Shown: one piece after another, positions 1 through 13,573 of the stretch
Layout of the letters: each line of letters begins with the position of its first letter
Position numbering within the stretch: position 1 is the stretch's first letter
Assembly (NCBI GenBank): GCA_964447165.1
Contig: CAYURS010000001.1
Span: forward strand, 1 to 27,078
Direction: 5' to 3'
Length of the DNA: 27,078 bases
From: an uncultured Thiotrichales bacterium
GTDB lineage: Bacteria > Pseudomonadota > Gammaproteobacteria > GCA-2400775
Made by a program: the position numbers and the translations under genes
Notes under the pieces: model-generated
Seen by the model: only the letters and a program-made list of their open reading frames with translations
The model's database searches: none
What the model was told of the DNA's origin: nothing

Positions 1-31
1 ACCAATTTTCCAGGATATTTTCTAACGACAT
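1..31 (-). CDS. 5' end of the next gene in the act-like operon (partial, MSLENILENW...); expected by context to be the 4Fe-4S subunit ActB2/QrcC
   Basis: ATG at 31..29 on the minus strand, preceded by AAGGGG (46..41) 9 nt upstream, directly after the TAA of the 47..2335 gene. The frame is open to the window edge. Identity is inferred from operon logic only. Confidence 0.45.
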   Translation of the reverse strand, partial: MSLENILENW

Positions 32-46
32 AAATAGAAACCCCTT

Positions 47-2335
47 TTATACGCGCCGCAACTGATCGGCAGTAATGGTAGCCACCAATTTGCGGCCAAC
101 CTGGGATTCGCTACCTCCCATTTTAACCAACTCTTCATTACGTCCAGTGCTTTTCACTGTGACTCGTGTTGCACATAGCGCCAATTCGCCAGTATGCGCA
201 TCGGTTGCAGCCACAACCATCTTCAATGGATTAACACCGCGGCCCGTGGCATAACGACCATATTCGCTATGACCCTGCCCCATTGGCACAGCAATAGCGT
301 CTTTGTTAATACCCTTGTGCAAATAAACTTGTGCTTTAACACTGCCTGCTGCACTACTCACCTCAACAAAGTCACCCTGCTTAATTCTGTATTGCAACGC
401 CGTTGCTGGATGCATTTCCACCCAAGAGTTCCAAACGATCTTGGTAATCGCGTCAGGCGCTTCTTGCAACCAAGGCAGGTTAGCAAAACGACCATCACCA
501 AGACGACTACTCGCTGCCGGAATAAGACGCAGCGGGAAATCTTTATCTCTCTCGTACACAGGCAAAGCGAAGGTAACACCATCTTCTGGCTCAACATTAT
601 CGGCCATCTTTGTTGCTTCATCATCGCTAGCTGCATCTGCATCATTAGCCGCTTCAATCACCGGTGCTAATATTATTGCTGGCGCAGCCATTTTTAACAT
701 GCCTTGCTGCAAGCCAGCTTGCCAATAGGCTTCGTCGCTAGCACCTTCTTTAGCCACGGCAGGCACAGCAGCAATCACGTTGCGTAGATAGCCATAGTAA
801 TCGGCGAAGGGACCATATTGCTCTGAGTTGTACAGTTTCATAATCGCCAGCAAAGCATCACCAAAGCTACGTGTCTCAGCATACAATGGCTCCATCAGTG
901 GCTGCTGCAAGCTAATGATTGGCTCTGCGCCAGCGGGCTGATAGCTGGAAACATGAGTGCCCCATGATTCTAGATCAGAATGTAATGGCAGAATAATATC
1001 TGCCATTACCGTTGTTTCATCAATGAACTCGGCAAAGGCAATCTTGATTTTGACCGCATCAAGCGCGCCGGCCATATCAAGCTGTTCAGGCGCGGTATAA
1101 ACGGGGTTGGTGCCAGCAATCAACGCAACACTAATGTCACCGGCATGAGCAGCCTTGGCAAAAGCAGCCAGCTGCGCAGTGTCACCTTTTTTCGGTGCCA
1201 AAGCGGGATAAGGGAAGTCAGCCACTGCAATGACCGTCTTGCCAACGTTACCCAATAACACATTCAACATCGCTGCAGCAGTGACCGCTTCGTAACCATG
1301 CTCATGTCCAGCAGCAGTGCCACCCGCAATCACTAGGCTTGGGCTACGCGTTGCAAGGAAATTTGTTGCCTTTTTAACCAAGTCTGCTGCAACACCGGTT
1401 TGCTCTTCAGCGCTCGCCAAGCTGTATTGACCAAGCTGGTCAGCAATGGCTTTAGGCAGAGCCTTGCTGTCAGCACCATGGCTAGCAACCAGCTCCGCGG
1501 CAATGGTCATTGCCAAAGCGCCTTCGGCACCAGGGCGTACTGGCAACCAAAGATCAGCACTACCACCAGTGACGGTCATTTTAGGTTCGGCTTGAATCAA
1601 CACACCACGTGGCGCATCACGAAACTGGCCATACTGCACAGAATGATGTACCGGCGAGCCCCAGGTGCTTAAAAAGTCAGCCCCGAACGAAAGCACTACT
1701 TGTGCATCAGCAATTTTATATTGCACATTGGCGCTGCCATATACTTCGGCATTAACCTTATCAACGATGGCATCGTTAAGGGTTTCGTGAGCGTAGTGAC
1801 TGGCGCCACCGACTGCTGCAGAAACGGCATCTATCAGCACACGCTGATGGCCACTTACCGTGCCACTCAACCAAGCTATACGTGAACCATCGATGCCTGA
1901 ATCAGGACCAATGCTTGACTTAAGCAGGTCAAAGGCTTCGTCCCAGCTAGCATCAACCAACCTACCGCTCTGGCGAATCTTTGGCTGTTTCAGACGATCT
2001 GGATTGTAGTGTACTTGCAGTGCAGCCTGACCAATTTGGCACAGCGCACCCTGATTCACAGGCGATGCTGGGTTGCCTTCCAGCTTCAGTACGCGACCTT
2101 CACGGACGCGACCAACGATACCGCAACCGGCATCACATTGTTGGCAGGTTGACGCATACCAAACACCAATGCCTGGAATAACATACTCTTCCGGCATCAG
2201 GTAGGAAACCACATCTTCCTCACCTTCTTCCAGCGTCACGGTGCTTGGCATATCGCAGGCAGCTAAGGCCACCGAGGCACCACTTAACCCAGTAATTTTC
2301 AGAAAGTCTCTACGTTTGACTTTATACATGCTCAT
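47..2335 (-). CDS. actB1: Molybdopterin-oxidoreductase-fold subunit, ACIII ActB1/QrcB-like; Tat-exported lipoprotein with an N-terminal 4Fe-4S (FS0) motif
   Basis: Tat motif KRRDFLK; lipobox LAA-C27; C64-x2-C67-x3-C71-x27-C99; ActB-like segments SWDEAF, GADFLSTW, TGGSAD and ANLPWLQEAPDAITKIVWN; C-terminal dinucleotide-binding-type domain (VEMHPATA...VPMGQGH). Lies directly downstream of a pentaheme cytochrome. SD GAGGG upstream. Confidence 0.8.
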   Translation of the reverse strand: MSMYKVKRRDFLKITGLSGASVALAACDMPSTVTLEEGEEDVVSYLMPEEYVIPGIGVWYASTCQQCDAGCGIVGRVREGRVLKLEGNPASPVNQGALCQIGQAALQVHYNPDRLKQPKIRQSGRLVDASWDEAFDLLKSSIGPDSGIDGSRIAWLSGTVSGHQRVLIDAVSAAVGGASHYAHETLNDAIVDKVNAEVYGSANVQYKIADAQVVLSFGADFLSTWGSPVHHSVQYGQFRDAPRGVLIQAEPKMTVTGGSADLWLPVRPGAEGALAMTIAAELVASHGADSKALPKAIADQLGQYSLASAEEQTGVAADLVKKATNFLATRSPSLVIAGGTAAGHEHGYEAVTAAAMLNVLLGNVGKTVIAVADFPYPALAPKKGDTAQLAAFAKAAHAGDISVALIAGTNPVYTAPEQLDMAGALDAVKIKIAFAEFIDETTVMADIILPLHSDLESWGTHVSSYQPAGAEPIISLQQPLMEPLYAETRSFGDALLAIMKLYNSEQYGPFADYYGYLRNVIAAVPAVAKEGASDEAYWQAGLQQGMLKMAAPAIILAPVIEAANDADAASDDEATKMADNVEPEDGVTFALPVYERDKDFPLRLIPAASSRLGDGRFANLPWLQEAPDAITKIVWNSWVEMHPATALQYRIKQGDFVEVSSAAGSVKAQVYLHKGINKDAIAVPMGQGHSEYGRYATGRGVNPLKMVVAATDAHTGELALCATRVTVKSTGRNEELVKMGGSESQVGRKLVATITADQLRRV

Positions 2336-2400
2336 TTAGCAAATGCCCTCTACGCTTGTCATTTATACTGGCCATCAACACTTAACGTCAAACACCGCGC

Positions 2401-3081
2401 TTATTTATGACACTTCCAACAATCGAACGGGCCGTCGTTGGCTTCGTGACATTCGCGACAAAAGCCCATAGTTAGCGACTTTACCTTACGTGCAACAGTC
2501 ATTTCCTTGAGATCACCGTGACAAAAAGAACACACTTCGTCGGCACGCTCAACTTCCATACCTTCATTATCAAAGATAAAGCGCTTGAGATGCTTCTCAT
2601 GGTTAAAATGCACGAAGTCTGGCAAATCATAGACTTTCTTCCACTTCGGAGATTCACCTTTTTCCCAGTACTCTGTCAACTTCTTGATACGCGGCTTGTC
2701 TGTCGCAATAACAGTGTGACAACCCATGCACTTACTGGTTGGCGGTATGCCTGCAACATTACCGCGGCGGGCATAGGTATGGCAGTACATGCAGTTAATC
2801 TTGTTATCCCGCGCATGAATATCATGGGGGAACTCGATAGGTTGTTCGACGTGTTTGCCGTCAAAATCGCCCTTGGGCGGAACGGCATTAGGTACTTCCG
2901 CATAAGCGCTGCCAACAAAAAACAGCAGCAAACACAGCAGGCCGAATGCCAAATTGAAACGCGGCGCAAGGGGGGGCAAAATCGAGCCTCGGAGGGCTAC
3001 GTGCCCTCGGGATACAATATTGCTATTGCTCTGTGTTCGATTGCTTGGTGACGCCTTCCCAGGAATCAGTCCATACGTCAT
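2401..3081 (-). CDS. actA: Pentaheme cytochrome c, cytochrome c3-like, ACIII ActA/QrcA-like (alternative start TTG at 2979)
   Basis: Five CxxCH motifs (CMYCH, CMGCH, CSFCH, CRECH, CWKCH); ActA-like QPIEFPHDIH, LPDFVHFNHEKH and LTMGFCRECH; hydrophobic segment ending AYA|E. GAGG SD before both ATG 3081 and TTG 2979. Confidence 0.85.
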   Translation of the reverse strand: MTYGLIPGKASPSNRTQSNSNIVSRGHVALRGSILPPLAPRFNLAFGLLCLLLFFVGSAYAEVPNAVPPKGDFDGKHVEQPIEFPHDIHARDNKINCMYCHTYARRGNVAGIPPTSKCMGCHTVIATDKPRIKKLTEYWEKGESPKWKKVYDLPDFVHFNHEKHLKRFIFDNEGMEVERADEVCSFCHGDLKEMTVARKVKSLTMGFCRECHEANDGPFDCWKCHK

Positions 3082-3387
3082 AAACGTTACCTCAAATTCT
3101 CACGCAGGTGATGCGAGTATTATCTAACAAATTCAGAAAATGCAGACTTACGGAGGAAGAGAATAAACCACGCCGAGCAGCCATTCGCCCGGAAAAAATA
3201 TTGTCTAACGCCGCTGTTAAGCAGAGCCAACTGCATACAGCGATCACTATTGGTAACAACACTTTTGGCTTAAACCAAATAAAACCTGCCCCCGCGCCGG
3301 TATCGTGCCACCAGCATTTCTGATGTGCGCGTTCACTGAACTCCGAAGCTAAAGGCAGTCGCCTTCGCAGCGGTGATAGAGGGCGGC

Positions 3388-3417
3388 ATCCTAGACTAAT
3401 TCAGCCTGGGCTGTCAA
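3388..3417 (-). promoter_or_regulatory. Sigma70-type promoter for the act-like operon
   Basis: Minus strand TTGACA (3417..3412), 18 nt spacer, TAGGAT (3393..3388), then a GC-rich discriminator GCCGCCC. Predicted start about 3381. Confidence 0.65.
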
Positions 3418-3573
3418 TCTTAACTCCGCATGAACAGCCATCTCTGAACCCGCTACATTGAGCTTATAACATGCCGTGGACAATATGTGATTTTTCACAA
3501 AACTGCGGAAGGTATTGTTTCTCAAACAAAATCACTGGGGCACAATGCGCTTGCGCCATAAAAAAGCATCTCA

Positions 3574-4335
3574 TTAAATCGGATTATCAATGTCTATAAA
3601 TTCGTGATCGAGACTAAACTGCTTTGCTAAATGTCGCCCTAAGGCCTGAACACCATAACGCTCGGTAGCATGATGACCCGCCGCCAAATAATGAATGCCC
3701 AACTCTTTTGCCGCATGAAATGTGCGTTCTGATGCCTCGCCGCTGATATAAACATCAGCGCCCGCTGCTGCGGCCAGTTCAATATAATCTTGCGCAGCGC
3801 CGGTACACCAGGCGATACGCATCAGCGGCCTATCGTGCCCCATAATTAACAAAGGCTGGCGACTTAATGTGGCGCTAACATGCTGGGCAAAATCAGCAAT
3901 ACTCCTGACGGGTTTCGATAATTGCGCACAACGCACCAGCTCTGGGTTGTTAGCTGGCCCAATGGCTGCGCCAAAATCAAGGCCCAGTCGCTGGGCAAGT
4001 TGGGCGTTATTGCCCAGTTTTGGGTGTACATCCAGTGGTAGATGATAGGCGTAGAGACTGATATCAGCGCCGATCAATGCTTTGATACGACGATATTTTT
4101 GGCCGACAATACAAGGGCTTTCACCTTTCCAGAAATAACCATGATGCACCAACAAGGCATCGGCATTAACAGCCACGGCGGCATCAATCAAGGCCTGGCT
4201 TGCTGTCACACCACTGACGATTTTTTGAATCTCGCGCTTGCCAGCAAGCTGCAAGCCATTAGGGCAATAATCATGCTGCGCCGAAACAGTCAGTAATTCA
4301 CTGCAATAGCTTGCCAATTGCTCTCGTTCTACCAT
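3574..4335 (-). CDS. ybgI: Nif3-like dinuclear metal center hexameric protein (YbgI family)
   Basis: DYCPNGLQ, LLVHHG, YHLPLDVH and AGHHATERYG motifs; 253 aa; SD AAGGA upstream of the ATG. Confidence 0.93.
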   Translation of the reverse strand: MVEREQLASYCSELLTVSAQHDYCPNGLQLAGKREIQKIVSGVTASQALIDAAVAVNADALLVHHGYFWKGESPCIVGQKYRRIKALIGADISLYAYHLPLDVHPKLGNNAQLAQRLGLDFGAAIGPANNPELVRCAQLSKPVRSIADFAQHVSATLSRQPLLIMGHDRPLMRIAWCTGAAQDYIELAAAAGADVYISGEASERTFHAAKELGIHYLAAGHHATERYGVQALGRHLAKQFSLDHEFIDIDNPI

Positions 4336-4399
4336 GCGATCATCCTTTTATGTTATATCATTCACACATCATTTTGTCTTTAACGACACACCTGTATCT

Positions 4400-5563
4400 A
4401 TGCGTAAGTTTCTGCTCTATCTCGCCCAAGGCGCGTTTATCGGCCTTATTGTGGCATTCATCTATTTACTGCTGTTTCAACCCCATGTCTTTGAACACAA
4501 AGTCATCACGCTGAGCCAGGAGGCAAAGCCTACTATTGGCCAATTTGAACAACGTCATGGCACCATCGGTGGCCCAATATCTTACGCCAACGCCGTTAAC
4601 TTGGCCGCCCCTGCCGTTGTCAATATCCACACCACAAAAATCATACGCCAACGGCGTAATCCAATGTTGGACGATCCTTTCTTTCGCCGTTTTTTTGGTG
4701 ACAAATTCAATTCGCGACCACGGCAACGTGCTGAAAGCAGTTTAGGCTCAGGCGTTATTGTCAGCCCAGAGGGCTATGTGCTGACCAATAACCATGTGAT
4801 TGAAGGTGCTGATGAGATTATCGTCGCCCTGGCCGATGGTCGCACCTCTAAAGCGACGGTTATTGGCACTGACCCAGATACCGACCTCGCTGCGCTGAAG
4901 ATTCATATCGATGATGTACCGGTGATTACTGTCGGCCAATCTGACTTACTTGCCGTCGGTGATGTCGTGCTGGCCATAGGCAACCCATTTGGCGTTGGCC
5001 AAACAGTCACTATGGGCATTGTCAGTGCTACAGGACGCAGCGGGCTCAACATCACCACTTTTGAAAACTTTATTCAAACCGATGCGGCCATTAACCCAGG
5101 CAACTCGGGCGGCGCACTCATTAATGCCTTTGGCCAGCTGGTGGGCGTCAATACGGCAATATTCTCCAAGAGCGGTGGTTCTCAGGGAATTGGCTTTGCC
5201 ATCCCTACCAGTGTGGCGATAACGGTATTGGAGCAACTGATTGCCACCGGCCATGCGATACGTGGCTGGCTTGGTATCGAAGTTCAGGACATCACGCCAC
5301 GTCTAGCCCAATCATTCCGCCTTGACAGCCCTAACGGTATTCTTGTCGCAGGCGTATTGGAAAACGGCCCAGCTCACCGCGCAGGCTTTCGTTCAGGCGA
5401 TATTATCGTCGGCATAACAGGCATTAATTTTTCTAATGGTCACGAGATGATGAATCAAATCGCGCAAACAGCACCAGGCGAAACGCTGGTCATCGAATTA
5501 ATCCGTGAACGCCAGGCTATACGATTAAAGACCGTTATTGGTCAACGACCACAGCGCGACTAG
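4400..5563 (+). CDS. degS: HtrA-family serine protease, DegS/AlgW type (N-terminal membrane anchor, trypsin domain, one PDZ domain)
   Basis: Triad motifs TNNHVI, DTDLA and GNSGG; GSGVIV; one PDZ domain (GWLGIEVQ); hydrophobic anchor right after MRKF. Start moved from 4334 to ATG 4400 because 4334 overlaps the start of the divergent nif3 gene. Confidence 0.88.
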   Translation: MRKFLLYLAQGAFIGLIVAFIYLLLFQPHVFEHKVITLSQEAKPTIGQFEQRHGTIGGPISYANAVNLAAPAVVNIHTTKIIRQRRNPMLDDPFFRRFFGDKFNSRPRQRAESSLGSGVIVSPEGYVLTNNHVIEGADEIIVALADGRTSKATVIGTDPDTDLAALKIHIDDVPVITVGQSDLLAVGDVVLAIGNPFGVGQTVTMGIVSATGRSGLNITTFENFIQTDAAINPGNSGGALINAFGQLVGVNTAIFSKSGGSQGIGFAIPTSVAITVLEQLIATGHAIRGWLGIEVQDITPRLAQSFRLDSPNGILVAGVLENGPAHRAGFRSGDIIVGITGINFSNGHEMMNQIAQTAPGETLVIELIRERQAIRLKTVIGQRPQRD

Positions 5564-5605: not shown

Positions 5606-6403
5606 CTATTTCTGGCCATCATTACCACTTTGCTCAACAGTTTTATCTTCAGCCAACTCTTCTTCGGGCTTTATTGCCGTAAAGTATTTAGACAAAACAA
5701 GGCCTATCTCGAACAATAGCCACATAGGAATGGCTAACAGGGTTTGCGAAATAATATCGGGTGGCGTCAACAGCATACCGAAGACAAATGCTCCGACAAA
5801 AACGTAAGGGCGCTTTTCACGCAGGCTATCGGCTGTCGTCATGCCTGTCTTGATGACAAGAATAGTGGCAATGGGCACTTCAAAGGCGATACCAAAAGCG
5901 AAAAATATTTTAATGACAAAGCCAAGATACGAATTGATATCCGGCATCACCGAAACACCCTCCGGCGCCGTGCCCTGTAAAAAAGCAAAAACCAGAGGAA
6001 ATACAATGAAATAGGCGAACGCCATACCGAGGTAAAAAAGTAAGGTGCTGGACAACACCAACGGAAAAGCCAGGCGCTTTTCATTCTTATAAAGCCCAGG
6101 GGATATAAATGCCCAGGCGTGATAAAGCAATACCGGCACACCAATAAATATGGCTAATACCAGCGTCAATTTCAATGGCGTTAAGAAAGGATCGATAACA
6201 CCAATCGAAATCATCTTGGCATCTTGCGGCATTTGCGCCAGCAATGGCTCAGCCAAAATACCGTAGAGATCATTGGAAAAGGGCAACAAACAAACAAATA
6301 TGACAAGAATAGTAATGACCGCTCTGACCAGGCGATCACGTACCTCCTTCAAATGCTCCATGAAAGGTGATTCTTGTTCTGGTGGGAAATTCTTTGTGGT
6401 CAT
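5606..6403 (-). CDS. tatC: Twin-arginine translocase subunit TatC
   Basis: FMEHLKEVRDRL, PGLYKNEKR, FGIAFEVP and LTPPDIISQ motifs; six hydrophobic segments; follows tatA and tatB. Confidence 0.97.
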   Translation of the reverse strand: MTTKNFPPEQESPFMEHLKEVRDRLVRAVITILVIFVCLLPFSNDLYGILAEPLLAQMPQDAKMISIGVIDPFLTPLKLTLVLAIFIGVPVLLYHAWAFISPGLYKNEKRLAFPLVLSSTLLFYLGMAFAYFIVFPLVFAFLQGTAPEGVSVMPDINSYLGFVIKIFFAFGIAFEVPIATILVIKTGMTTADSLREKRPYVFVGAFVFGMLLTPPDIISQTLLAIPMWLLFEIGLVLSKYFTAIKPEEELAEDKTVEQSGNDGQK

Positions 6404-6448
6404 AAGAAATCTAAGAGTTTACTTTATGCAAGCGCGGCAAACAGACAG

Positions 6449-6760
6449 CTAACTTGATGAGGTCTTGTTATTAGTGGGCACAGAACTACTTGTGCCACTA
6501 TCAACCGGTATAGAATCCTTAAGTTGATTTACAGTATCGTGTAATTCAGCTAGCCCCTCTTGGTCTGAAGCAAGATTTTTTAGTTCTTCGGCCTTATCCA
6601 TCTCGCTTTTGATTTCTTGTTTGACACTGGCAGCAACCTTCCTCGCTTTGCCAACCCATTGCCCAACATTGCGTATCAGACCAGCGAATTTGTCTGGGCC
6701 AACGACAATTAAAGCAATGGCAGCAACAACCAGGATTTCCCAAGAACTGATATCAAACAT
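6449..6760 (-). CDS. tatB: Twin-arginine translocase subunit TatB
   Basis: MFDISSWEILVVAAIALIVVGPDK N-terminus followed by an amphipathic helix; lies between tatA and tatC. Confidence 0.93.
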   Translation of the reverse strand: MFDISSWEILVVAAIALIVVGPDKFAGLIRNVGQWVGKARKVAASVKQEIKSEMDKAEELKNLASDQEGLAELHDTVNQLKDSIPVDSGTSSSVPTNNKTSSS

Positions 6761-6771
6761 ATGCGGGCCTG

Positions 6772-7026
6772 TTAGGCTTTATCTTTTTCCGCCGAAACAT
6801 TTTTCTCGGCGACACTTTTCTCAGAGACCTCACCTTCAATCACGTCATCGGCATCCGCTTTTTCAAGTTTGGCGTCAACGCCTGCTTCACCATCTTTTAT
6901 GGCGCTCTTAAAGCCTTTAACCGCACTACCTAAATCACCGCCGACATTACGCAAACGTTTTGCGCCAAACAAAAGCAGCACAATCACTAATATAATCAAT
7001 AACTGCCAAACACCGATACCACCCAT
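6772..7026 (-). CDS. tatA: Twin-arginine translocase subunit TatA
   Basis: [19 protein letters not shown]...[11 protein letters not shown] signature and an acidic tail. Confidence 0.95.
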
Positions 7027-7068: not shown

Positions 7069-7389
7069 CTATTTTTCAGCGCGCGACACCTTCTCTTCAA
7101 TACCGGAAACACCAAAACGCCGCGACAACTCGTCGGTCACTGCCGACACTGGTATACCTTTATGAACCAGTAAAATCAAAGCGTGAAACCATAAATCTGC
7201 CATTTCATGGATCACCTGCTCACGCGTTTCGCTCTGACTGGCAATGATCACTTCAACGGCCTCTTCACCCAACTTCTTTAGAATTTTATTCTGCCCTGCT
7301 TGGTAAAGACTAGCGACATAAGACGTGTCAGCATCAGCTGTTTTACGACCTTCTAGTACTTTTTCCAGCTTGGTGAGAATATCACTCAT
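7069..7389 (-). CDS. hisE: Phosphoribosyl-ATP diphosphatase (monofunctional HisE)
   Basis: SYVASLY, KKLGEEAVE and EMADLWFH motifs; 106 aa; no HisI domain. Confidence 0.95.
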   Translation of the reverse strand: MSDILTKLEKVLEGRKTADADTSYVASLYQAGQNKILKKLGEEAVEVIIASQSETREQVIHEMADLWFHALILLVHKGIPVSAVTDELSRRFGVSGIEEKVSRAEK

Positions 7390-7503
7390 TGTAACAAATC
7401 ACGCCTAATCAGCCCCATAATGGCCGCTTTTATAATGGTTTTCAACCAAAGTTTATGCAGAAAACTGTCCATTTAAATGACCGATCATTAGCAAGATTGG
7501 GGC

Positions 7504-8277
7504 TTAGAGACGAACTTCAATACCCGCAGCAGCCATAAATTGCTTGGCTTCACCGATACTGTACTTGCCATAATGAAAAATACTCGCCGCCAGTACCGCG
7601 TCTGCATGGCCCAACTCAACACCAGCAACCAAATGTGATAATGAACCAACACCACCCGAGGCAATCACAGGCATAGCAATAGCATCACTCACTGCACGAG
7701 TCAGCTCGAGATCAAAACCCGCTTTAGTGCCATCACGATCCATACTGGTCAGCAGGATTTCGCCGGCACCATAATGTTGCATGCGCTGCACCCAGTCAAT
7801 CACGTCAATGCCTGTCTCTTTGCGTCCACCATGAGTATAAATCTGCCAACGGTGAGGTTCGCCTTGTGCGCTAACACAACGCGCATCAACCGCAACAACA
7901 ATACATTGTGCTCCGTATTTATCGGCAGCACGGCGCACCAGGTCTGGGTCAGCAATTGCGGCGGTATTAATACCAACCTTGTCGGCACCTGCTTTGAGCA
8001 TACGACCAACATCTGCAACGCTGCGAATGCCGCCACCGACGGTCAAGGGGATGAAAATCTCGCTGGCCACTTGCTCAACAACATGCACCATGGTATCTCG
8101 CCCTTCATGGCTGGCGCTGATATCAAGGAAGACCAGTTCATCAGCGCCCTGCGTATCGTAACGACGCGCCACCTCGACGGGGTCACCGGCATCACGAATA
8201 TCGACAAATTGCACGCCTTTAACAACGCGACCGTTGTCCACATCAAGGCAGGGAATAATACGTTTGGCTAAGGCCAT
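7504..8277 (-). CDS. hisF: Imidazole glycerol phosphate synthase cyclase subunit
   Basis: [29 protein letters not shown] and IASGGVG motifs. Its ATG overlaps the hisA stop codon (TAATG). Confidence 0.98.
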
Positions 8278-9017
8278 TATTTTTGCGAAAATTCGTCGGC
8301 CACTTTTTGTGCGGCGGCTAAATCGAGTGTGCCTTCATAAAGTGCACGGCCACTGATGGCGCCAACAATTCCTTCGCCTTCGACGGCGCATAACTTACGC
8401 ACATCATCCATATTGGTGATACCGCCTGAAGCAATCACTGGAATGTTTATGGATTGCGCAAGTTTGACTGTTGCTTCGATATTGACACCGCCCATCATGC
8501 CGTCACGACTGATATCGGTATAAATAATTGCCTCAACGCCATCACGCTGAAAATGCTGCGCCATATCGATAACATCATGGTGTGATAATTTAGACCATCC
8601 ATTAATGGCAACTTTACCGTCTTTAGCATCGAGGCCAACGATGATGTGGCCTGGGAACTCAACACAAACCTCGGAAACAAAATGTGGTTCAGTCACTGCG
8701 CTAGTACCAATAATGACATAGCTAACACCGCTGTCGAGGTAGGCCTGAATAGTGTCGTCATCGCGAATACCACCACCGACCTGAATCGGAATATCGGGCA
8801 CTGCATCAACAATACGATGAATCACTTCGGCATTGGCAGGTCGCCCCTGGATTGCGCCATCAAGATCGACAATATGTAAACGGCGTGCGCCGGCCTCAAC
8901 CCACCGTTGCGCCATGGCCACCGGATCGTCTGAGAAAATGGTCTCATCGTCCATATTGCCCTGGCGCAGGCGCACACACTTGCCATCCTTGAGATCAATC
9001 GCTGGTATTAGCAGCAT
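8277..9017 (-). CDS. hisA: ProFAR isomerase HisA
   Basis: [33 protein letters not shown] and YTDISRDG motifs. Confidence 0.98.
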
Positions 9018-9047
9018 AATATTTTCCTCACCTCTTTACGTATCGCC

Positions 9048-9689
9048 TTATTGTCCATTCCATTGCATAAAATTATCGAGCAGTCGCAAGCCCAAATCTT
9101 GGCTTTTTTCGGGATGAAACTGCACTGCAAAAATATTTGGTGCAGCCACTGCCGCACAAAAATCGCCGCCGTAATCACAGACGCCTACGACATGCTTTGC
9201 ATCATTAGCGGCGACATAATAACTGTGCACAAAATAAAAACGACTACCTGACGTAACGCCATGCCACATTGGATGATCTTGCTTAAGATCAAGCATGCTC
9301 CAACCCATATGCGGCACTTTGAGCCTTTGGCCTGTTTTATCGACACGGCTGCGGCCAAAATAATCTACCGTACCTGGCAAAATTCCTAACCCATCGCAAC
9401 CGCCATTTTCTTCGCCCGAATCGAACAAGGCCTGCATCCCCAAACAAATCCCTAAAAAGGGCTTTTCTTTAACAAGATCTTTAATCAAGCTGTCTAACGA
9501 CAAGCGCTTTAACTCAGACATCGCCTCACGTAACGCGCCAACGCCGGGGAAAACCACACGATCTGCCTCAGCAATCAGCTTAGGGTCATTAGTCACGTGA
9601 ACTGATGCATTGGGACTCACATGTTCTAATGCCTTTGACACAGAGCGTAAATTGCCCATACCGTAATCTATCACTGCGACCGAATTCAT
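9048..9689 (-). CDS. hisH: Imidazole glycerol phosphate synthase glutaminase subunit
   Basis: IDYGMGNLRSV, GICLGMQ (catalytic Cys), VPHMGW and QFHPEKS motifs. Confidence 0.98.
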   Translation of the reverse strand: MNSVAVIDYGMGNLRSVSKALEHVSPNASVHVTNDPKLIAEADRVVFPGVGALREAMSELKRLSLDSLIKDLVKEKPFLGICLGMQALFDSGEENGGCDGLGILPGTVDYFGRSRVDKTGQRLKVPHMGWSMLDLKQDHPMWHGVTSGSRFYFVHSYYVAANDAKHVVGVCDYGGDFCAAVAAPNIFAVQFHPEKSQDLGLRLLDNFMQWNGQ

Positions 9690-9716
9690 AATTAATCTAT
9701 CTTTGTGGCGAATGTA

Positions 9717-10310
9717 TTAGAGCTTGCCTTTGGTTGAGGGAATCGTGCCTGCACTGCGCTCATCAAACTCAATCGCCATACGCAGGGCACGACCGAAGGC
9801 CTTGAACACGGTTTCAATAATGTGATGGGCATTATCGCCGCGAATATTGTCGATATGCAGCGTAATCCAGGCATGGTTAACCAGGCCACCAAAAAATTCG
9901 CGGAACAGGTCAACATCAAAACCACCAACGCTGGAACGCGGAAAATTAATGGCGTATTCAAGGCCTGGACGCCCTGAAAAATCAATGACAACACGTGACA
10001 AGGCTTCATCAAGCGGCACATAGGCATGACCGTAACGACGAATACCACGTTTGTCACCAATTGCTTTAGCCAATGCTTGACCCAAGGTGATACCGATATC
10101 TTCAACCGTGTGATGATCATCAATCTCAGTGTCACCTTTAGCGCTCACCGTAAGATCAACCAAGCCATGCCTGGCAATTTGATCCATCATATGATCAAGA
10201 AAAGGAATACCACTATCCAGTTTAGCCTGACCGCTGCCATCGAGGTTAATGCTGACTTCAATTTGGGTTTCTAGCGTATCGCGTTTTACCGACGCCCTAC
10301 GATCTGTCAT
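9717..10310 (-). CDS. hisB: Imidazoleglycerol-phosphate dehydratase (monofunctional HisB)
   Basis: DDHHTVED and NAHHIIE metal motifs; C-terminal PSTKGKL; no phosphatase domain. Start placed at ATG 10310 (GGAG SD upstream) rather than 10328. Confidence 0.96.
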
Positions 10311-10337
10311 GATTTTCTCCAAGCACAACTATAACAA

Positions 10338-11639
10338 TTAATCTTGAATTCGGTATTCGGCTGAGCGTGCATGCGCGGTCAAGCCTTCGCCACGTGCTAG
10401 CGTTGCAGCAATTTTACCCAGTTTAGATGCACCTTCGGGCGAACACATAATGAGGCTAGAACGTTTTTGAAAATCATAAACACCCAGCGGCGATGAAAAG
10501 CGTGCGGTACCTGCTGTTGGTAAAACATGGTTCGGCCCGGCGCAATAATCGCCCAGCACTTCAGTGGTTGATTGCCCCATAAAAATCGCTCCCGCGTGGC
10601 GCACTTTGGGCAGTAACGATTGAGGATTGGCCACCGACAGTTGTAAATGCTCAGGCGCAATGGTGTTAATTACGGTCATCGCAGTATCAATGCTGTCAGC
10701 TTCTATCATTGCGGCGCGACGGTTTAACGATGCGGTAATAATCTCGCGGCGCTCCATTTCGGGCAGCAAACGGTTAATACTTTGTTCAACCTGTTCAATA
10801 TAGGCGGTATCTGTGCTGATTAGAATGGCTTGCGCATTTTCATCGTGTTCAGACTGTGAGAACAAATCCATCGCCACCCAGTCTGCCGGCATACTGTTAT
10901 CTGCTAACACCACTATTTCTGACGGGCCAGCAATCATATCGATCCCGACGGTGCCAAATACCAAGCGCTTGGCTGTTGCTACATAAATATTGCCTGGACC
11001 AACAATCTTATCGACGGCGGGCACGGTGTCGGTACCATAGGCTAGCGCGGCAATGGCTTGCGCACCACCAACGGTAAAGACGCGATTAACACCGCTAATG
11101 GCGGCCGCCGCTAATACCAATTCGTTGAGCACACCATTGGGTGTCGGCACCACCATAATCAATTCATCAACACCAGCGACTTTGGCTGGAATAGCATTCA
11201 TTAATACCGATGAGGGATAAGCAGCTTTGCCGCCCGGCACATAAAGCCCGACACGATCCAGCGGCGTGATTTTTTGACCGAGCAAGGTGCCATCTTCCTC
11301 GGTATATTGCCAAGACTCACTTTTTTGTTTAACGTGATAATCGCGTAATCGTTGTGCCGCTTGTTGCAGGGCGCTTCTTTGTGCTTGCGGAATAGTCTTT
11401 AAAGCCTGTTGCAAACGTGATGCGGGTAATTCTAATTCAGTGGCACTGGCAACCTTTAAGTGATCAAAGCGCTCGGTATACTCGGTAAGCGCTGCATCAC
11501 CACGTTGGCGCACATCCATTAAGATTTCGCGTACGGTATTATTGATCGCCAGATCATCGGCATCATCAAAGTCGCGCAGCGTTTTAAGTTGCTGCCAAAA
11601 ATCTGCAGACCCGGTGTTTAATCGTCGTATTACAACCAT
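10338..11639 (-). CDS. hisD: Histidinol dehydrogenase
   Basis: [51 protein letters not shown] and AHARS motifs. Confidence 0.98.
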
Positions 11640-11648
11640 GAGTCTGAT

Positions 11649-12284
11649 TTAGCGCGCTTCTACTGCTGAGCTAATCTGTTCAATTAATTGCTTAATGCGA
11701 GACTGTTTCATTTTCATCGAACCCTTATTCACCACCAAGCGCGAGCTGACATCCATAATATGCTCCATTGGCACTAGACCATTAGCGCGCAAGGTATTGC
11801 CAGTATCAACCAGGTCAACAATCAAATCAGACAAACCGACCATAGGCGCCAGCTCCATAGAGCCATAGAGTTTGATGATTTCAACCTGGACACCTTGCTT
11901 GGCATAATATTGCTGTGTCGTACGGACGTATTTAGTGGCTATACGCATACGTGCCTGGCGCTGAGTGTAGTCAGGCACACCCGCGAGCATCAAAGCACAA
12001 CTAGCGATTTTTAAATCCAGCAGTTCGTATAAACCATTGCCGTCATACTCAACCAACACGTCTTTACCTGCGATGCCAACATCAGCAGCACCATACTCAA
12101 CAAAGGTGGGGACATCAGCAGCACGAATAATAACGAGCTTAACGCTAGGCTCGTTAGTATCGATAATGAGCTTGCGGCTGATATCAGGGTCTTCTGTTGG
12201 CACGATGCCAGCGGCGGCCAACAAAGGTAAGGCTTCTTGGTAAATACGCCCTTTAGAAACGGCAATAGTGAGATTATCGTTCAA
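11649..12284 (-). CDS. hisG: ATP phosphoribosyltransferase, short form (needs HisZ, which is not in this window)
   Basis: [25 protein letters not shown] and YGSMELAP...[14 protein letters not shown] motifs; 211 aa, lacking the C-terminal regulatory domain. Start placed at TTG 12284 with GGAG 5 nt upstream. Confidence 0.95.
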
Positions 12285-12298
12285 AGTCACTCCAGGCT

Positions 12299-13573
<1,275 letters not shown>

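What the first reader, a model, noticed from the sequence alone, without database searches (positions are those of the whole stretch)
1..3573. ACIII/Qrc-like operon occupies the chromosomal slot where the bc1 operon petABC normally sits
Seen: murA-his-tatABC, a convergent degS, nif3, and then, in the same orientation as nif3, a pentaheme cytochrome, an ActB1-like gene and a third coupled gene. Established: in Burkholderiales such as Cupriavidus and Burkholderia, the order murA-his-tatABC-degQ/S(opposite)-nif3-(mscL) is followed by petABC-sspAB. ACIII is a structurally unrelated functional substitute for bc1. Inference: this lineage may carry an in-situ, non-orthologous replacement of complex III, in which a foreign quinol:acceptor oxidoreductase operon took over the locus and possibly the promoter. 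This is the best candidate here for an undescribed system.
Basis: partly seen in the sequence, partly recalled or inferred. Interest (0 to 1): 0.72.

Follow-up and report, generated by a model that had tools for sequence, protein, structure and literature searches.

The report
Alternative complex III operon beside nif3
The window holds the start of an ordinary, already described type of alternative complex III (ACIII) respiratory operon.

Summary
On the minus strand, murA-his-tatABC, a convergent degS and nif3 are followed by actA (pentaheme cytochrome c, 2401-3081), actB1 (47-2335) and the first 10 codons of actB2.

A 96%-identical relative and more than 90 other loci show the complete seven-gene operon actA-B1-B2-C-D-E-F. 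Every subunit matches solved ACIII structures. It is the split-ActB type with a CX2CX3CX27C motif, already described in iron oxidisers. It is therefore not an undescribed system, and it is not Qrc.

The host is an uncultured gammaproteobacterium from hydrothermal vents, not a member of Burkholderiales. The operon has native base composition, was inherited vertically, and carries its own conserved promoter.

The "bc1 slot" idea is well supported by related loci:
- nif3-ACIII-sspAB with no petABC: 14 loci.
- ACIII-petABC-sspAB: 10 loci.
- nif3-petABC-ACIII: 1 locus, whose nearest relatives differ from it at this spot by an indel of the petABC block.

The window type, nif3-ACIII-rpe-gph-trpE, has lost both petABC and sspAB from this locus. 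Whether bc1 survives elsewhere in the genome could not be tested.

Verdict: a new member of a known kind, with an interesting synteny story. Interest 0.45.

The parts
1..31 (-). First 10 codons of actB2, the four-cluster iron-sulfur subunit. The gene is cut by the window end.
   Evidence: MSLENILENW is identical to the start of the 282-aa ActB2 of L044. That protein matches the C-terminal half of ACIII ActB in 6F0K, 8K9E, 6LOD and 6BTM at E 1e-55 to 1e-75.
47..2335 (-). actB1. A Tat-exported subunit with a molybdopterin-oxidoreductase fold. It keeps the FS0 [4Fe-4S] motif (Cys64, 67, 71, 99) but has no canonical Mo ligand (Asn187).
   Evidence: Pfam PF04879, PF00384 and PF01568. PDB hits to ACIII ActB at E 1e-36 to 4e-40 and to ArrA at 4e-40. 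The four Cys are invariant in 121 of 124 family members, and Asn occupies the ArrA Mo-Cys position in 108 of 124.
2401..3081 (-). actA. A membrane-anchored pentaheme cytochrome c.
   Evidence: Five CXXCH motifs at aa 97, 118, 184, 208 and 221, and one membrane helix at aa 38-56. PDB hits to ACIII ActA in 8K9E, 6F0K, 6BTM and 6LOD at E 3e-27 to 7e-24.
3082..3387 (-). Leader of about 300 nt between the promoter and actA. Its 5' end, GCCGCCCUCU, can pair with the Shine-Dalgarno region UGAGGUAACG.
   Evidence: Nearly invariant in relatives at 70-96% protein identity. RNAalifold predicts 63 pairs, 13 with changes on both sides against about 5 in the controls, but the single-sequence z-score is 0.01. 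There is no Rfam match. Its function is unknown.
3388..3417 (-). Sigma-70-type promoter-like element of the act operon: TTGACA, 18 nt, TAGGAT.
   Evidence: Consensus scan scores 10 of 12. The core TTGACA...TCTAG[G/C]AT is kept in 39 loci with different upstream genes.
3506..3535 (-). Conserved block GTGATTTTGTTTGAGAAACAATACCTTCCG, which contains the inverted repeat TTGTTT-GAG-AAACAA. It may be an operator.
   Evidence: Near-invariant in window, L001, L002, L004, L005, L044 and L045. No binding factor was identified.
3574..4335 (-). nif3 (DUF34, GTP cyclohydrolase I type 2 homologue). It is the conserved upstream flank of the act operon.
   Evidence: Pfam PF01784 at 2e-67. nif3 is the upstream neighbour of actA in 40 of 70 informative loci.
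4334..5563 (+). degS/htrA-family protease. It is divergent from nif3 and convergent with tatC.
   Evidence: Pfam Trypsin_2 plus PDZ, and NCBIfam DegS at 335 bits, which is below that model's cutoff.
5606..7026 (-). tatC, tatB and tatA, which are flanking core genes.
   Evidence: Pfam TatC at 2e-69. TatA_B_E was found in the relatives.

Best explanation
Window positions 1-3573 hold the promoter, a long leader and the first two and a bit genes (actA, actB1, the start of actB2) of a seven-gene alternative complex III operon, actA-B1-B2-C-D-E-F. It is of the split-ActB type first described in neutrophilic iron oxidisers.

How it most likely works (inferred from homology to solved ACIII complexes and from established knowledge of that family):
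- Quinol is oxidised at the NrfD-type subunit ActC.
- Electrons pass along the iron-sulfur clusters of ActB2 to the five hemes of membrane-anchored ActA and the single heme of ActE.
- From there they go to a periplasmic cytochrome c or an oxidase.
- ActC and ActF provide possible proton paths.
- ActB1 is exported by Tat and probably carries the signal-less ActB2 with it. It keeps an extra [4Fe-4S] site but not a molybdenum ligand.
- The direction of electron flow could be reversed in a lithotroph.

Evolution (shown by comparing loci): the operon is a long-standing, vertically inherited resident of the chromosomal neighbourhood nif3 ... petABC-sspAB. Relatives show the following states:
- bc1 and ACIII side by side.
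- ACIII flanked by the two genes, nif3 and sspAB, that flank the bc1-ACIII neighbourhood in relatives, with petABC gone.
- The window's state, nif3-ACIII-rpe-gph-trpE, in which both petABC and sspAB are gone from the locus.

At this locus ACIII therefore stands where bc1 stood. Whether bc1 has gone from the whole genome is not known.
For: Identity of the operon:
- The complete operon is present in the 96% relatives L044 and L045 and in L002-L006 and L046-L049.
- Matches to solved ACIII structures: ActA 3e-27, ActB1 4e-40, ActB2 6e-75, ActC 3e-104, ActD 3e-4 (plus Pfam ActD at 2e-28), ActE 2e-9, ActF 3e-18.
- The CX2CX3CX27C motif and the split actB are as described in PMC4643136.

Residency in this lineage:
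- Act protein identities fall in step with those of the flanking His, Tat, DegS and Nif3 proteins across the clade.
- GC, GC3 and codon usage of actA and actB1 lie inside the range of the 25 flanking genes.
- The operon's own promoter is conserved in 39 loci.

The slot:
- Of 51 loci with an informative downstream flank, sspA follows in 19, petA in 12 and rpe in 13.
- Of 70 with an informative upstream flank, nif3 precedes in 40 and petC in 3.
- In the nif3-ACIII-sspAB loci the actF-sspA gap is 94-181 nt, and no pet remnants are found.
- L134 reads nif3-cytc-petABC-orf219-ACIII, and its nearest relatives read nif3-orf219-ACIII-sspAB.
- Outgroups L052 and L054 read nif3-zapG-zapE-rplM-rpsI-petA-petBC-sspAB.
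Against: - No activity, cofactor or expression data exist. No RNA run holds the sequence.
- ActC to ActF are seen only in relatives, because the window ends in actB2.
- In the window's own type only the upstream flank (nif3) is shared with the bc1 slot. The downstream flank is rpe-gph-trpE, so a plain rearrangement that moved petABC-sspAB elsewhere intact would give the same picture.
- No locus shows nif3-ACIII-petABC in one row (0 of 44 with both flanks known).
- The ActB1 tree is a single-protein neighbour-joining tree without support values, and it is not a species tree. Loss versus gain of petABC is therefore inferred, not shown.
- In published lineages with this ACIII type, bc1 usually coexists with it.
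Confidence: 0.8

Rival explanations
1. Full non-orthologous displacement. The window's organism has no petABC anywhere, and ACIII is its only quinol:cytochrome c oxidoreductase.
For: - petABC is absent from the window's 27 kb and from 10 kb either side of the operon in all loci of the window type. No Pet, Ssp, ZapE or RplM remnants are found.
- Related lineages have sspAB directly after ACIII (14 loci) or divergent from it (L085), with no petABC in front of sspA, its usual place.
- There are precedents. Gallionella ES-2 has this ACIII type and no bc1 in a complete genome. Nitrotoga-type Gallionellaceae carry ACIII in 100% of genomes and bc1 in 7.7%.
Against: - The rest of the genome was never examined. 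A cytochrome b search was swamped by Cellvibrionales and linked no hit to an ACIII-bearing contig.
- sspAB is also missing from this locus, so the petABC-sspAB block may simply have moved as a unit.
- Most iron oxidisers and Tenderiales with this ACIII also keep bc1.
Confidence: 0.4
2. Coexistence. A rearrangement between actF and petA separated ACIII from an intact petABC-sspAB block that survives elsewhere. ACIII then serves as a second branch, for example at low oxygen or for reverse (cytochrome c to quinone) electron flow in iron or sulfur lithotrophy.
For: - The downstream flank in the window type is unrelated (rpe-gph-trpE), and the region after nif3 varies among Gammaproteobacteria.
- Tandem ACIII-petABC-sspAB loci exist in the same ActB1 clade.
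- The literature reports frequent overlap of bc1 and ACIII and proposes forward and reverse roles.
Against: - Nothing direct supports it.
- L085 and 14 loci of the nif3-ACIII-sspAB type show that pet-less sspAB is common in this family.
Confidence: 0.45
3. ActB1 is a catalytic molybdoenzyme of the Arr, Psr or Phs type, and the complex is a substrate reductase or oxidase rather than a complex III analogue.
For: - The best PDB hit by a hair is arsenate reductase ArrA (3.9e-40).
- The FS0 cysteine motif, which canonical ACIII ActB lacks, is invariant.
Against: - The ArrA molybdenum-ligand cysteine aligns with Asn187. That position is Asn in 108 of 124 family members and is never consistently Cys, Ser or Asp.
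- All NCBIfam molybdoenzyme models score far below their cutoffs.
- The partner genes are ActA, C, D, E and F, with ActC at E 1e-104 to ACIII ActC.
Confidence: 0.05
4. It is a Qrc-type menaquinone reductase (QrcABCD), as in sulfate reducers.
For: The best NCBIfam names are QrcB (273 bits), QrcA (74 bits) and QrcC (213 bits), and the B and C subunits are separate genes as in Qrc.
Against: - All three scores are well below the curated cutoffs of 440, 180 and 400.
- ActA has five hemes, not six.
- ActD (PF11821), the monoheme ActE and ActF are present, and Qrc lacks them.
Confidence: 0.03

Closest known systems
ACIII-like actAB1B2CDEF cluster of neutrophilic iron oxidisers (Ferriphaselus, Sideroxydans, Gallionella, Mariprofundus; Kato et al. 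2015, PMC4643136). It is also reported in Tenderiales.
   Same: Seven genes in the same order. actB is split into actB1 and actB2. ActB1 carries the same CX2CX3CX27C [4Fe-4S] motif. No actG was seen.
   Different: - The host is an uncultured, unclassified gammaproteobacterial clade from vents and crustal fluids. Iron oxidation and cyc2 were not examined.
- The linkage to nif3, petABC and sspAB was not found in the literature searched.
Canonical alternative complex III with solved structures: Rhodothermus marinus 6F0K, Flavobacterium johnsoniae 6BTM, Roseiflexus 6LOD and entry 8K9E.
   Same: Homologues of ActA, B, C, D, E and F are all present (E 1e-104 to 3e-4). ActB has a Tat signal. ActA is pentaheme and ActE is monoheme.
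   Different: - In those complexes ActB is one fused polypeptide whose B1 part has no cysteine motif.
- Here ActF is shorter, at 345 aa against 411-464.
- ActE has no cysteine for a lipid anchor.
- No caa3 oxidase genes follow the operon.
Qrc menaquinone reductase (QrcABCD) of Desulfovibrio
   Same: The molybdopterin-like and ferredoxin subunits are separate genes. There is a multiheme cytochrome and an NrfD subunit.
   Different: Scores fall below the family cutoffs. There are five hemes, not six. ActD, ActE and ActF are extra subunits.
Cytochrome bc1 complex (petABC)
   Same: The presumed job is the same, quinol:cytochrome c oxidoreduction. The chromosomal neighbourhood is also the same in relatives (nif3 upstream, sspAB downstream).
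   Different: There is no sequence or structural relationship. No pet gene lies in the window or in the window-type loci.
Arsenate, polysulfide and thiosulfate reductase catalytic subunits (ArrA 6CZ7, PsrA 2VPW)
   Same: The fold, the Tat signal and the FS0 cluster motif of ActB1.
   Different: The molybdenum-ligand residue is not conserved (Asn187). The partner subunits differ.

Membership tests
Alternative complex III (ActABCDEF) | ActA: pentaheme cytochrome c with an N-terminal membrane anchor | tested here: met
   Five CXXCH motifs and one membrane helix. ACIII ActA chains match at E 3e-27 to 7e-24.
Alternative complex III (ActABCDEF) | ActB: a Tat-exported molybdopterin-like module without Mo, plus a four-cluster ferredoxin module | tested here: met
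   RRDFLK signal and Pfam molybdopterin domains. Asn sits at the Mo-ligand position. ActB2 has 16 Cys and matches the ActB C-terminal half at 6e-75. The variant features are two genes instead of one and retention of FS0.
Alternative complex III (ActABCDEF) | ActC: NrfD-type quinol-binding membrane subunit | tested here: met
   It lies outside the window, but it is present in the 96% relative and in all others. Pfam NrfD, and ACIII ActC matches at 2e-91 to 3e-104.
Alternative complex III (ActABCDEF) | ActD, ActE (monoheme) and ActF (second NrfD-like subunit) | tested here: met
   PF11821 at 2e-28. ActE has one CXXCH and matches 6BTM_E at 2e-9. ActF matches 6F0K_F at 3e-18. All were tested in relatives only.
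Alternative complex III (ActABCDEF) | Quinol:cytochrome c (or auracyanin) oxidoreductase activity | not testable with these tools
   This needs biochemistry.
Iron-oxidiser-type ACIII-like cluster (Kato et al. 2015) | actB split into actB1 and actB2, ActB1 with CX2CX3CX27C, gene order actAB1B2CDEF | tested here: met
   The motif C64-X2-C67-X3-C71-X27-C99 is invariant in 121 of 124 members. The order is seen.
Iron-oxidiser-type ACIII-like cluster (Kato et al. 2015) | Membership of the monophyletic iron-oxidiser act clade, in a host with cyc2 | not tested
   No iron-oxidiser sequences could be fetched. The genome beyond the window was not available.
Qrc (QrcABCD) | Scores above the NCBIfam equivalog cutoffs, a hexaheme QrcA, and a four-subunit complex | tested here: not met
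   QrcB scores 273 against a cutoff of 440, QrcA 74 against 180 and QrcC 213 against 400. There are five hemes, and ActD, E and F are present.
Catalytic Mo/W-bisPGD oxidoreductases (Arr, Psr, Phs, Fdh) | A Cys, Sec, Ser or Asp ligand to molybdenum, and scores above the family cutoffs | tested here: not met
   Asn187 aligns with the ArrA ligand cysteine, and the position is Asn in 108 of 124 members. All NCBIfam scores are far below their cutoffs.
In-situ non-orthologous displacement of bc1 | The replacing operon lies between the same flanking genes as the replaced one | tested here: inconclusive
   Met in relatives: 14 loci are nif3-ACIII-sspAB, and L134 shows the petABC indel. In the window only the upstream flank (nif3) is shared, and relatives of the window type have rpe downstream.
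In-situ non-orthologous displacement of bc1 | Intermediates exist that carry both operons side by side | tested here: met
   ACIII-petABC-sspAB in L078, L088, L096, L098, L099 and L101. petABC-ACIII in L124, L133 and L134.
In-situ non-orthologous displacement of bc1 | The replaced genes (petABC) are absent from the whole genome | not testable with these tools
   Only 27 kb of this genome and 10 kb either side in relatives could be read. The cytochrome b search was uninformative.

The most novel reading that the evidence does not exclude
In a large uncultured gammaproteobacterial radiation, ACIII settled next to petABC in the nif3...sspAB neighbourhood. It then displaced bc1 repeatedly, step by step and at the same spot, leaving ACIII as the only complex III in several lineages, the window's organism among them.
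Probability: 0.4. Interest if true: 0.6.

Novelty: new member of a known kind. Interest (0 to 1): 0.45.

Why it matters
ACIII was discovered as a stand-in for bc1, but how one complex replaces the other during evolution is not documented at the level of a locus.

The loci gathered here form a series:
- bc1 alone near nif3.
- bc1 and ACIII in tandem, on either side of each other.
- ACIII alone between nif3 and sspAB.
- ACIII with a new downstream flank.

If whole genomes confirm that bc1 is lost, this would be a natural experiment in exchanging a core respiratory enzyme without disturbing its chromosomal surroundings. It would also point to uncultured vent and crustal Gammaproteobacteria that respire with ACIII only.

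The iron-sulfur site kept in ActB1 and the conserved promoter and leader are handles for asking what this ACIII subtype does differently from the solved ones.

Tried and rejected
Searches that led nowhere:
- Exact look-ups of the window's ActB1 and ActA proteins, to extend the contig to the left, found nothing on record.
- A cytochrome b search seeded with PetB of outgroup L054 was meant to catch hits on the same long contigs as ActB1 (1,832,339, 257,799, 315,344 bp and others). All 120 listed hits were Cellvibrionales fused b-c1 proteins, and no contig length coincided.
- A metagenome scan for the leader motif found nothing.
- No RNA-seq run holds the region.
- Rfam gave no match to the leader or anywhere else in the window, even at E up to 10 for the leader.
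- tblastn for remnants of ZapG, ZapE, RplM, RpsI, PetA, PetBC, SspA and SspB in the window and the 53 loci held at that point gave no hits.
- Literature searches for ACIII together with sspA or with petABC synteny found no prior description.
- Searches by MAG names gave only 'class Gammaproteobacteria' for NORP163.

Readings considered and rejected:
- Recent horizontal acquisition, rejected on composition and co-divergence.
- Qrc and a catalytic molybdoenzyme, rejected by the membership tests.
- A leader peptide in the 5' region, rejected because the reading frame is not conserved among relatives.
- A widely conserved leader RNA, rejected because only the promoter core, not the leader sequence, is kept outside the close subclade.

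Full report
**What is in the window.** On the minus strand lie murA, hisG-D-B-H-A-F-E, tatA, tatB and tatC. degS is on the plus strand, tail-to-tail with tatC. nif3 follows at 3574-4335. After a 492-nt gap, on the same strand, comes a 226-aa cytochrome (2401-3081) with five CXXCH motifs and one N-terminal membrane helix. Next is a 762-aa protein (47-2335) with a twin-arginine signal and the three Pfam domains of molybdopterin oxidoreductases. Fifteen nucleotides later, behind an AAGGGG ribosome-binding site, a third gene starts at position 31. The rest of the window (proA, nadD, rsfS, rlmH, maf, rng, yhdP, a nitrilase-family gene, mlaFEDCB) is housekeeping.

**Whose genome it is.** The closest genomic matches are MAGs labelled Gammaproteobacteria or Thiotrichales, at 96, 86, 84, 82 and 70% ActB1 identity. 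The next group is Gemmatimonadota at about 35%. Cluster names add nothing more precise. One relative, NORP163 from North Pond crustal fluid, is classified only to class level. The window's own DNA is held by hydrothermal-vent metagenome runs at about 10x depth, with two strain variants and no joints across the nif3-actA junction.

**What lies beyond the window.** The ten visible codons of the third gene, MSLENILENW, equal the N-terminus of the 282-aa ferredoxin that follows ActB1 in the 96% relative L044. In that relative, and in every other relative, the operon is actA, actB1, actB2, actC (NrfD), actD (PF11821), actE (monoheme cytochrome c) and actF. All subunits match the chains of solved ACIII complexes:

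| Subunit | Best E-value to a solved ACIII chain |
|---|---|
| ActA | 3e-27 |
| ActB1 | 4e-40 |
| ActB2 (against the C-terminal half of ActB) | 6e-75 |
| ActC | 3e-104 |
| ActD | 3e-4 |
| ActE | 2e-9 |
| ActF | 3e-18 |

The Qrc models of NCBIfam score well below their cutoffs, and Qrc lacks ActD, E and F. This is ACIII, not Qrc.

**Which ACIII.** Canonical ActB is a single polypeptide whose molybdopterin-like half has lost the cluster-binding cysteines. The alignment to 8K9E, 6BTM and 6F0K shows this directly. Here ActB is split, and ActB1 keeps C64-X2-C67-X3-C71-X27-C99, invariant in 121 of 124 family members. That is exactly the 'actAB1B2CDEF, actB split, CX2CX3CX27C' cluster described for Ferriphaselus, Sideroxydans, Gallionella and Mariprofundus (PMC4643136). 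ArrA is nominally the best PDB hit of ActB1, but its molybdenum-ligand cysteine aligns with Asn187, which is Asn in 108 of 124 members. A catalytic molybdoenzyme is therefore unlikely. The family is large. There are 1599 hits at E of 1e-20 or better among the candidates scored, and the best 120 clusters are all 49-96% identical, about 720-780 aa long, and come from gammaproteobacterial MAGs. It is not an undescribed system.

**Foreign or native.** Across relatives, Act protein identities fall in step with those of the flanking proteins. At the far end of the clade, for example, ActB1 is 51-55% identical, Nif3 45-55%, TatC 53-54%, ActC 78-79% and HisA 74-75%. GC, GC3 and codon usage of actA and actB1 lie within the spread of the 25 other genes in the window. 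The operon is an old, vertically inherited resident.

**Promoter and leader.**
- A TTGACA-18 nt-TAGGAT element at 3417-3388 is invariant in the close relatives.
- Its core, TTGACA...TCTAG[G/C]AT, is found 300-600 nt upstream of actA in 39 loci, whatever gene lies upstream.
- The operon thus carries its own promoter and did not take over one.
- The leader of about 300 nt is almost invariant within the close subclade. It has three hairpins with compensatory changes, and its 5' end can pair with the ribosome-binding site.
- The evidence for structure is modest: 7 sequences, 13 pairs with changes on both sides against about 5 in the controls, and a single-sequence z-score of 0.01. There is no Rfam match.

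**The slot question: outgroups.** The nearest Nif3 homologues outside the clade are from Pseudomonadales and Cellvibrionales.
- In Zhongshania and another MAG the order is murA-hisGD(C)-degS(opposite)-nif3-zapG(opposite)-zapE-rplM-rpsI-petA-petB/C1-sspA-sspB.
- In a Pseudomonas-like contig, cysD and cysNC follow nif3.
- Two other contigs have an unrelated context.

bc1 is therefore a near neighbour of nif3 in some other Gammaproteobacteria, though not adjacent to it.

**The slot question: the ACIII family itself.** A metagenome scan with an ActB1 alignment gave 80 further loci at 42-54% identity. Marker mapping shows four locus types:

| Type | Gene order | Loci with both flanks known |
|---|---|---|
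| T1 (the window's type) | hisF-tatC-degS-nif3-ACIII-rpe-gph-trpE | 11 |
| T2 | the same upstream genes, then ACIII-sspA-sspB | 14 |
| T3 | other genes, then ACIII-petA-petB-petC(-sspAB) | 10 |
| T4 | petABC, then ACIII (L124, L133, L134) | 1 (L124) |

- In T2 the actF-sspA gap is only 94-181 nt (509-590 nt in two loci), and there is no pet remnant.
- Overall, the gene after the operon is sspA in 19, petA in 12 and rpe in 13 of 51 informative loci.
- The gene before the operon is nif3 in 40 of 70 informative loci.
- L134 reads tatC-degS-nif3-cytc-petA-petB-petC-orf219(opposite)-ACIII. Its nearest ActB1 relatives read nif3-orf219(opposite)-ACIII-sspAB, and their orf219 is 48-60% identical. The only difference is the block cytc-petABC.
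- L085 has sspB-sspA divergent from actA, with no pet genes in front of sspA.

ACIII and bc1 therefore share one chromosomal neighbourhood in this family. In many lineages ACIII now sits between the two genes, nif3 and sspAB, that bound that shared neighbourhood in relatives.

**What this does and does not show for the window.**
- The window type has only the upstream flank in common with that slot. Both petABC and sspAB are missing, and no remnants are detectable.
- Two histories fit. In one, petABC was lost and a later rearrangement removed sspAB. In the other, a rearrangement between actF and petA moved an intact petABC-sspAB block elsewhere.
- I could not read the rest of any of these genomes.
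- Published data cut both ways. Most iron oxidisers and Tenderiales have both complexes, while Gallionella ES-2 and nearly all Nitrotoga-type Gallionellaceae have ACIII without bc1.
- I put absence of bc1 from this genome at about 0.4.
- The ActB1 tree is a single-protein neighbour-joining tree, so the direction of the indels is an inference.

**Mechanism.** Shown: the gene content, the motifs and the homology. Inferred from the solved ACIII complexes and from established knowledge of the family:
- Quinol is oxidised at ActC.
- Electrons pass through the clusters of ActB2 to the hemes of ActA and ActE, and on to a periplasmic acceptor.
- Proton paths may run through ActC and ActF.
- ActB1 is exported by Tat. 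ActB2, which has no signal peptide, probably travels with it.
- The extra cluster site in ActB1 and the possible reversal of electron flow in a lithotroph are open points.

**Verdict.** The operon is a new member of a known kind. Genome-wide replacement of bc1 remains to be tested. I found no earlier description of the ACIII-petABC-sspAB linkage in the literature searched.

Noticed in passing
window 3082-3417 (minus strand): An invariant promoter-like element is followed by a leader of about 300 nt that is almost unchanged among relatives at 70-96% protein identity. The leader has three hairpins with compensatory changes, a terminator-like hairpin at 3192-3173, and a 5' end complementary to the actA ribosome-binding site. 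It has no Rfam match, and its function is unknown.
   Followed up: partly
window 3506-3535: A conserved block just after the nif3 stop codon contains the inverted repeat TTGTTT-GAG-AAACAA. It is kept in seven close relatives and may be a regulator-binding site.
   Followed up: partly
L044 7304-7669 and L045 (96% relatives): A 366-bp insert lies between actB2 and actC. It has terminal inverted repeats of about 30 bp and an internal repeated CCTTGTACCCCAAGGGCAC, which looks like a miniature inverted-repeat element. It is absent from L005, where the gap is 57 bp. Whether the window's genome has it is unknown.
   Followed up: no
L052 14367-16424 and L054 14656-16890: In Cellvibrionales (Spongiibacteraceae, Halieaceae) cytochrome b and cytochrome c1 are encoded as one fused protein of 680-750 aa. 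Most of the 120 listed homologue clusters show this fusion. A paper read in passing already notes such fusions in a few Gammaproteobacteria.
   Followed up: no
window 7069-12302: The his cluster of the window and its close relatives lacks hisC and hisI (order hisG-D-B-H-A-F-E). More distant clade members L047 and L049 have both genes in place.
   Followed up: no
L134 8270-8929 and the nif3-actA gap of L106, L108-L110, L113, L121, L122, L130: A conserved 219-aa protein with no Pfam family is encoded on the opposite strand immediately upstream of actA in one branch of the family.
   Followed up: partly
L044 9627-11300 (ActE, ActF): ActE has a signal peptide but no cysteine for a lipid anchor. 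ActF is 345 aa, about 70-120 residues shorter than ActF in the solved complexes, and aligns from about residue 55-105 of those chains onward.
   Followed up: no
L062 9095-10501: An extra 468-aa ActC-like (NrfD-type) gene lies between actF and rpe in one locus of the window type.
   Followed up: no
L006 1-7000: In one relative the act operon follows degS directly, without nif3. The upstream genes are mpl, ubiX, a Lon N-terminal domain protein and a UbiH-like monooxygenase, with an ISL3 transposase fragment at the contig end.
   Followed up: partly
window 4334-4335: The longest degS ORF (409 aa) starts 2 nt inside the divergent nif3 start. Relatives-404 aa, so the true degS start is probably further downstream.
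   Followed up: no
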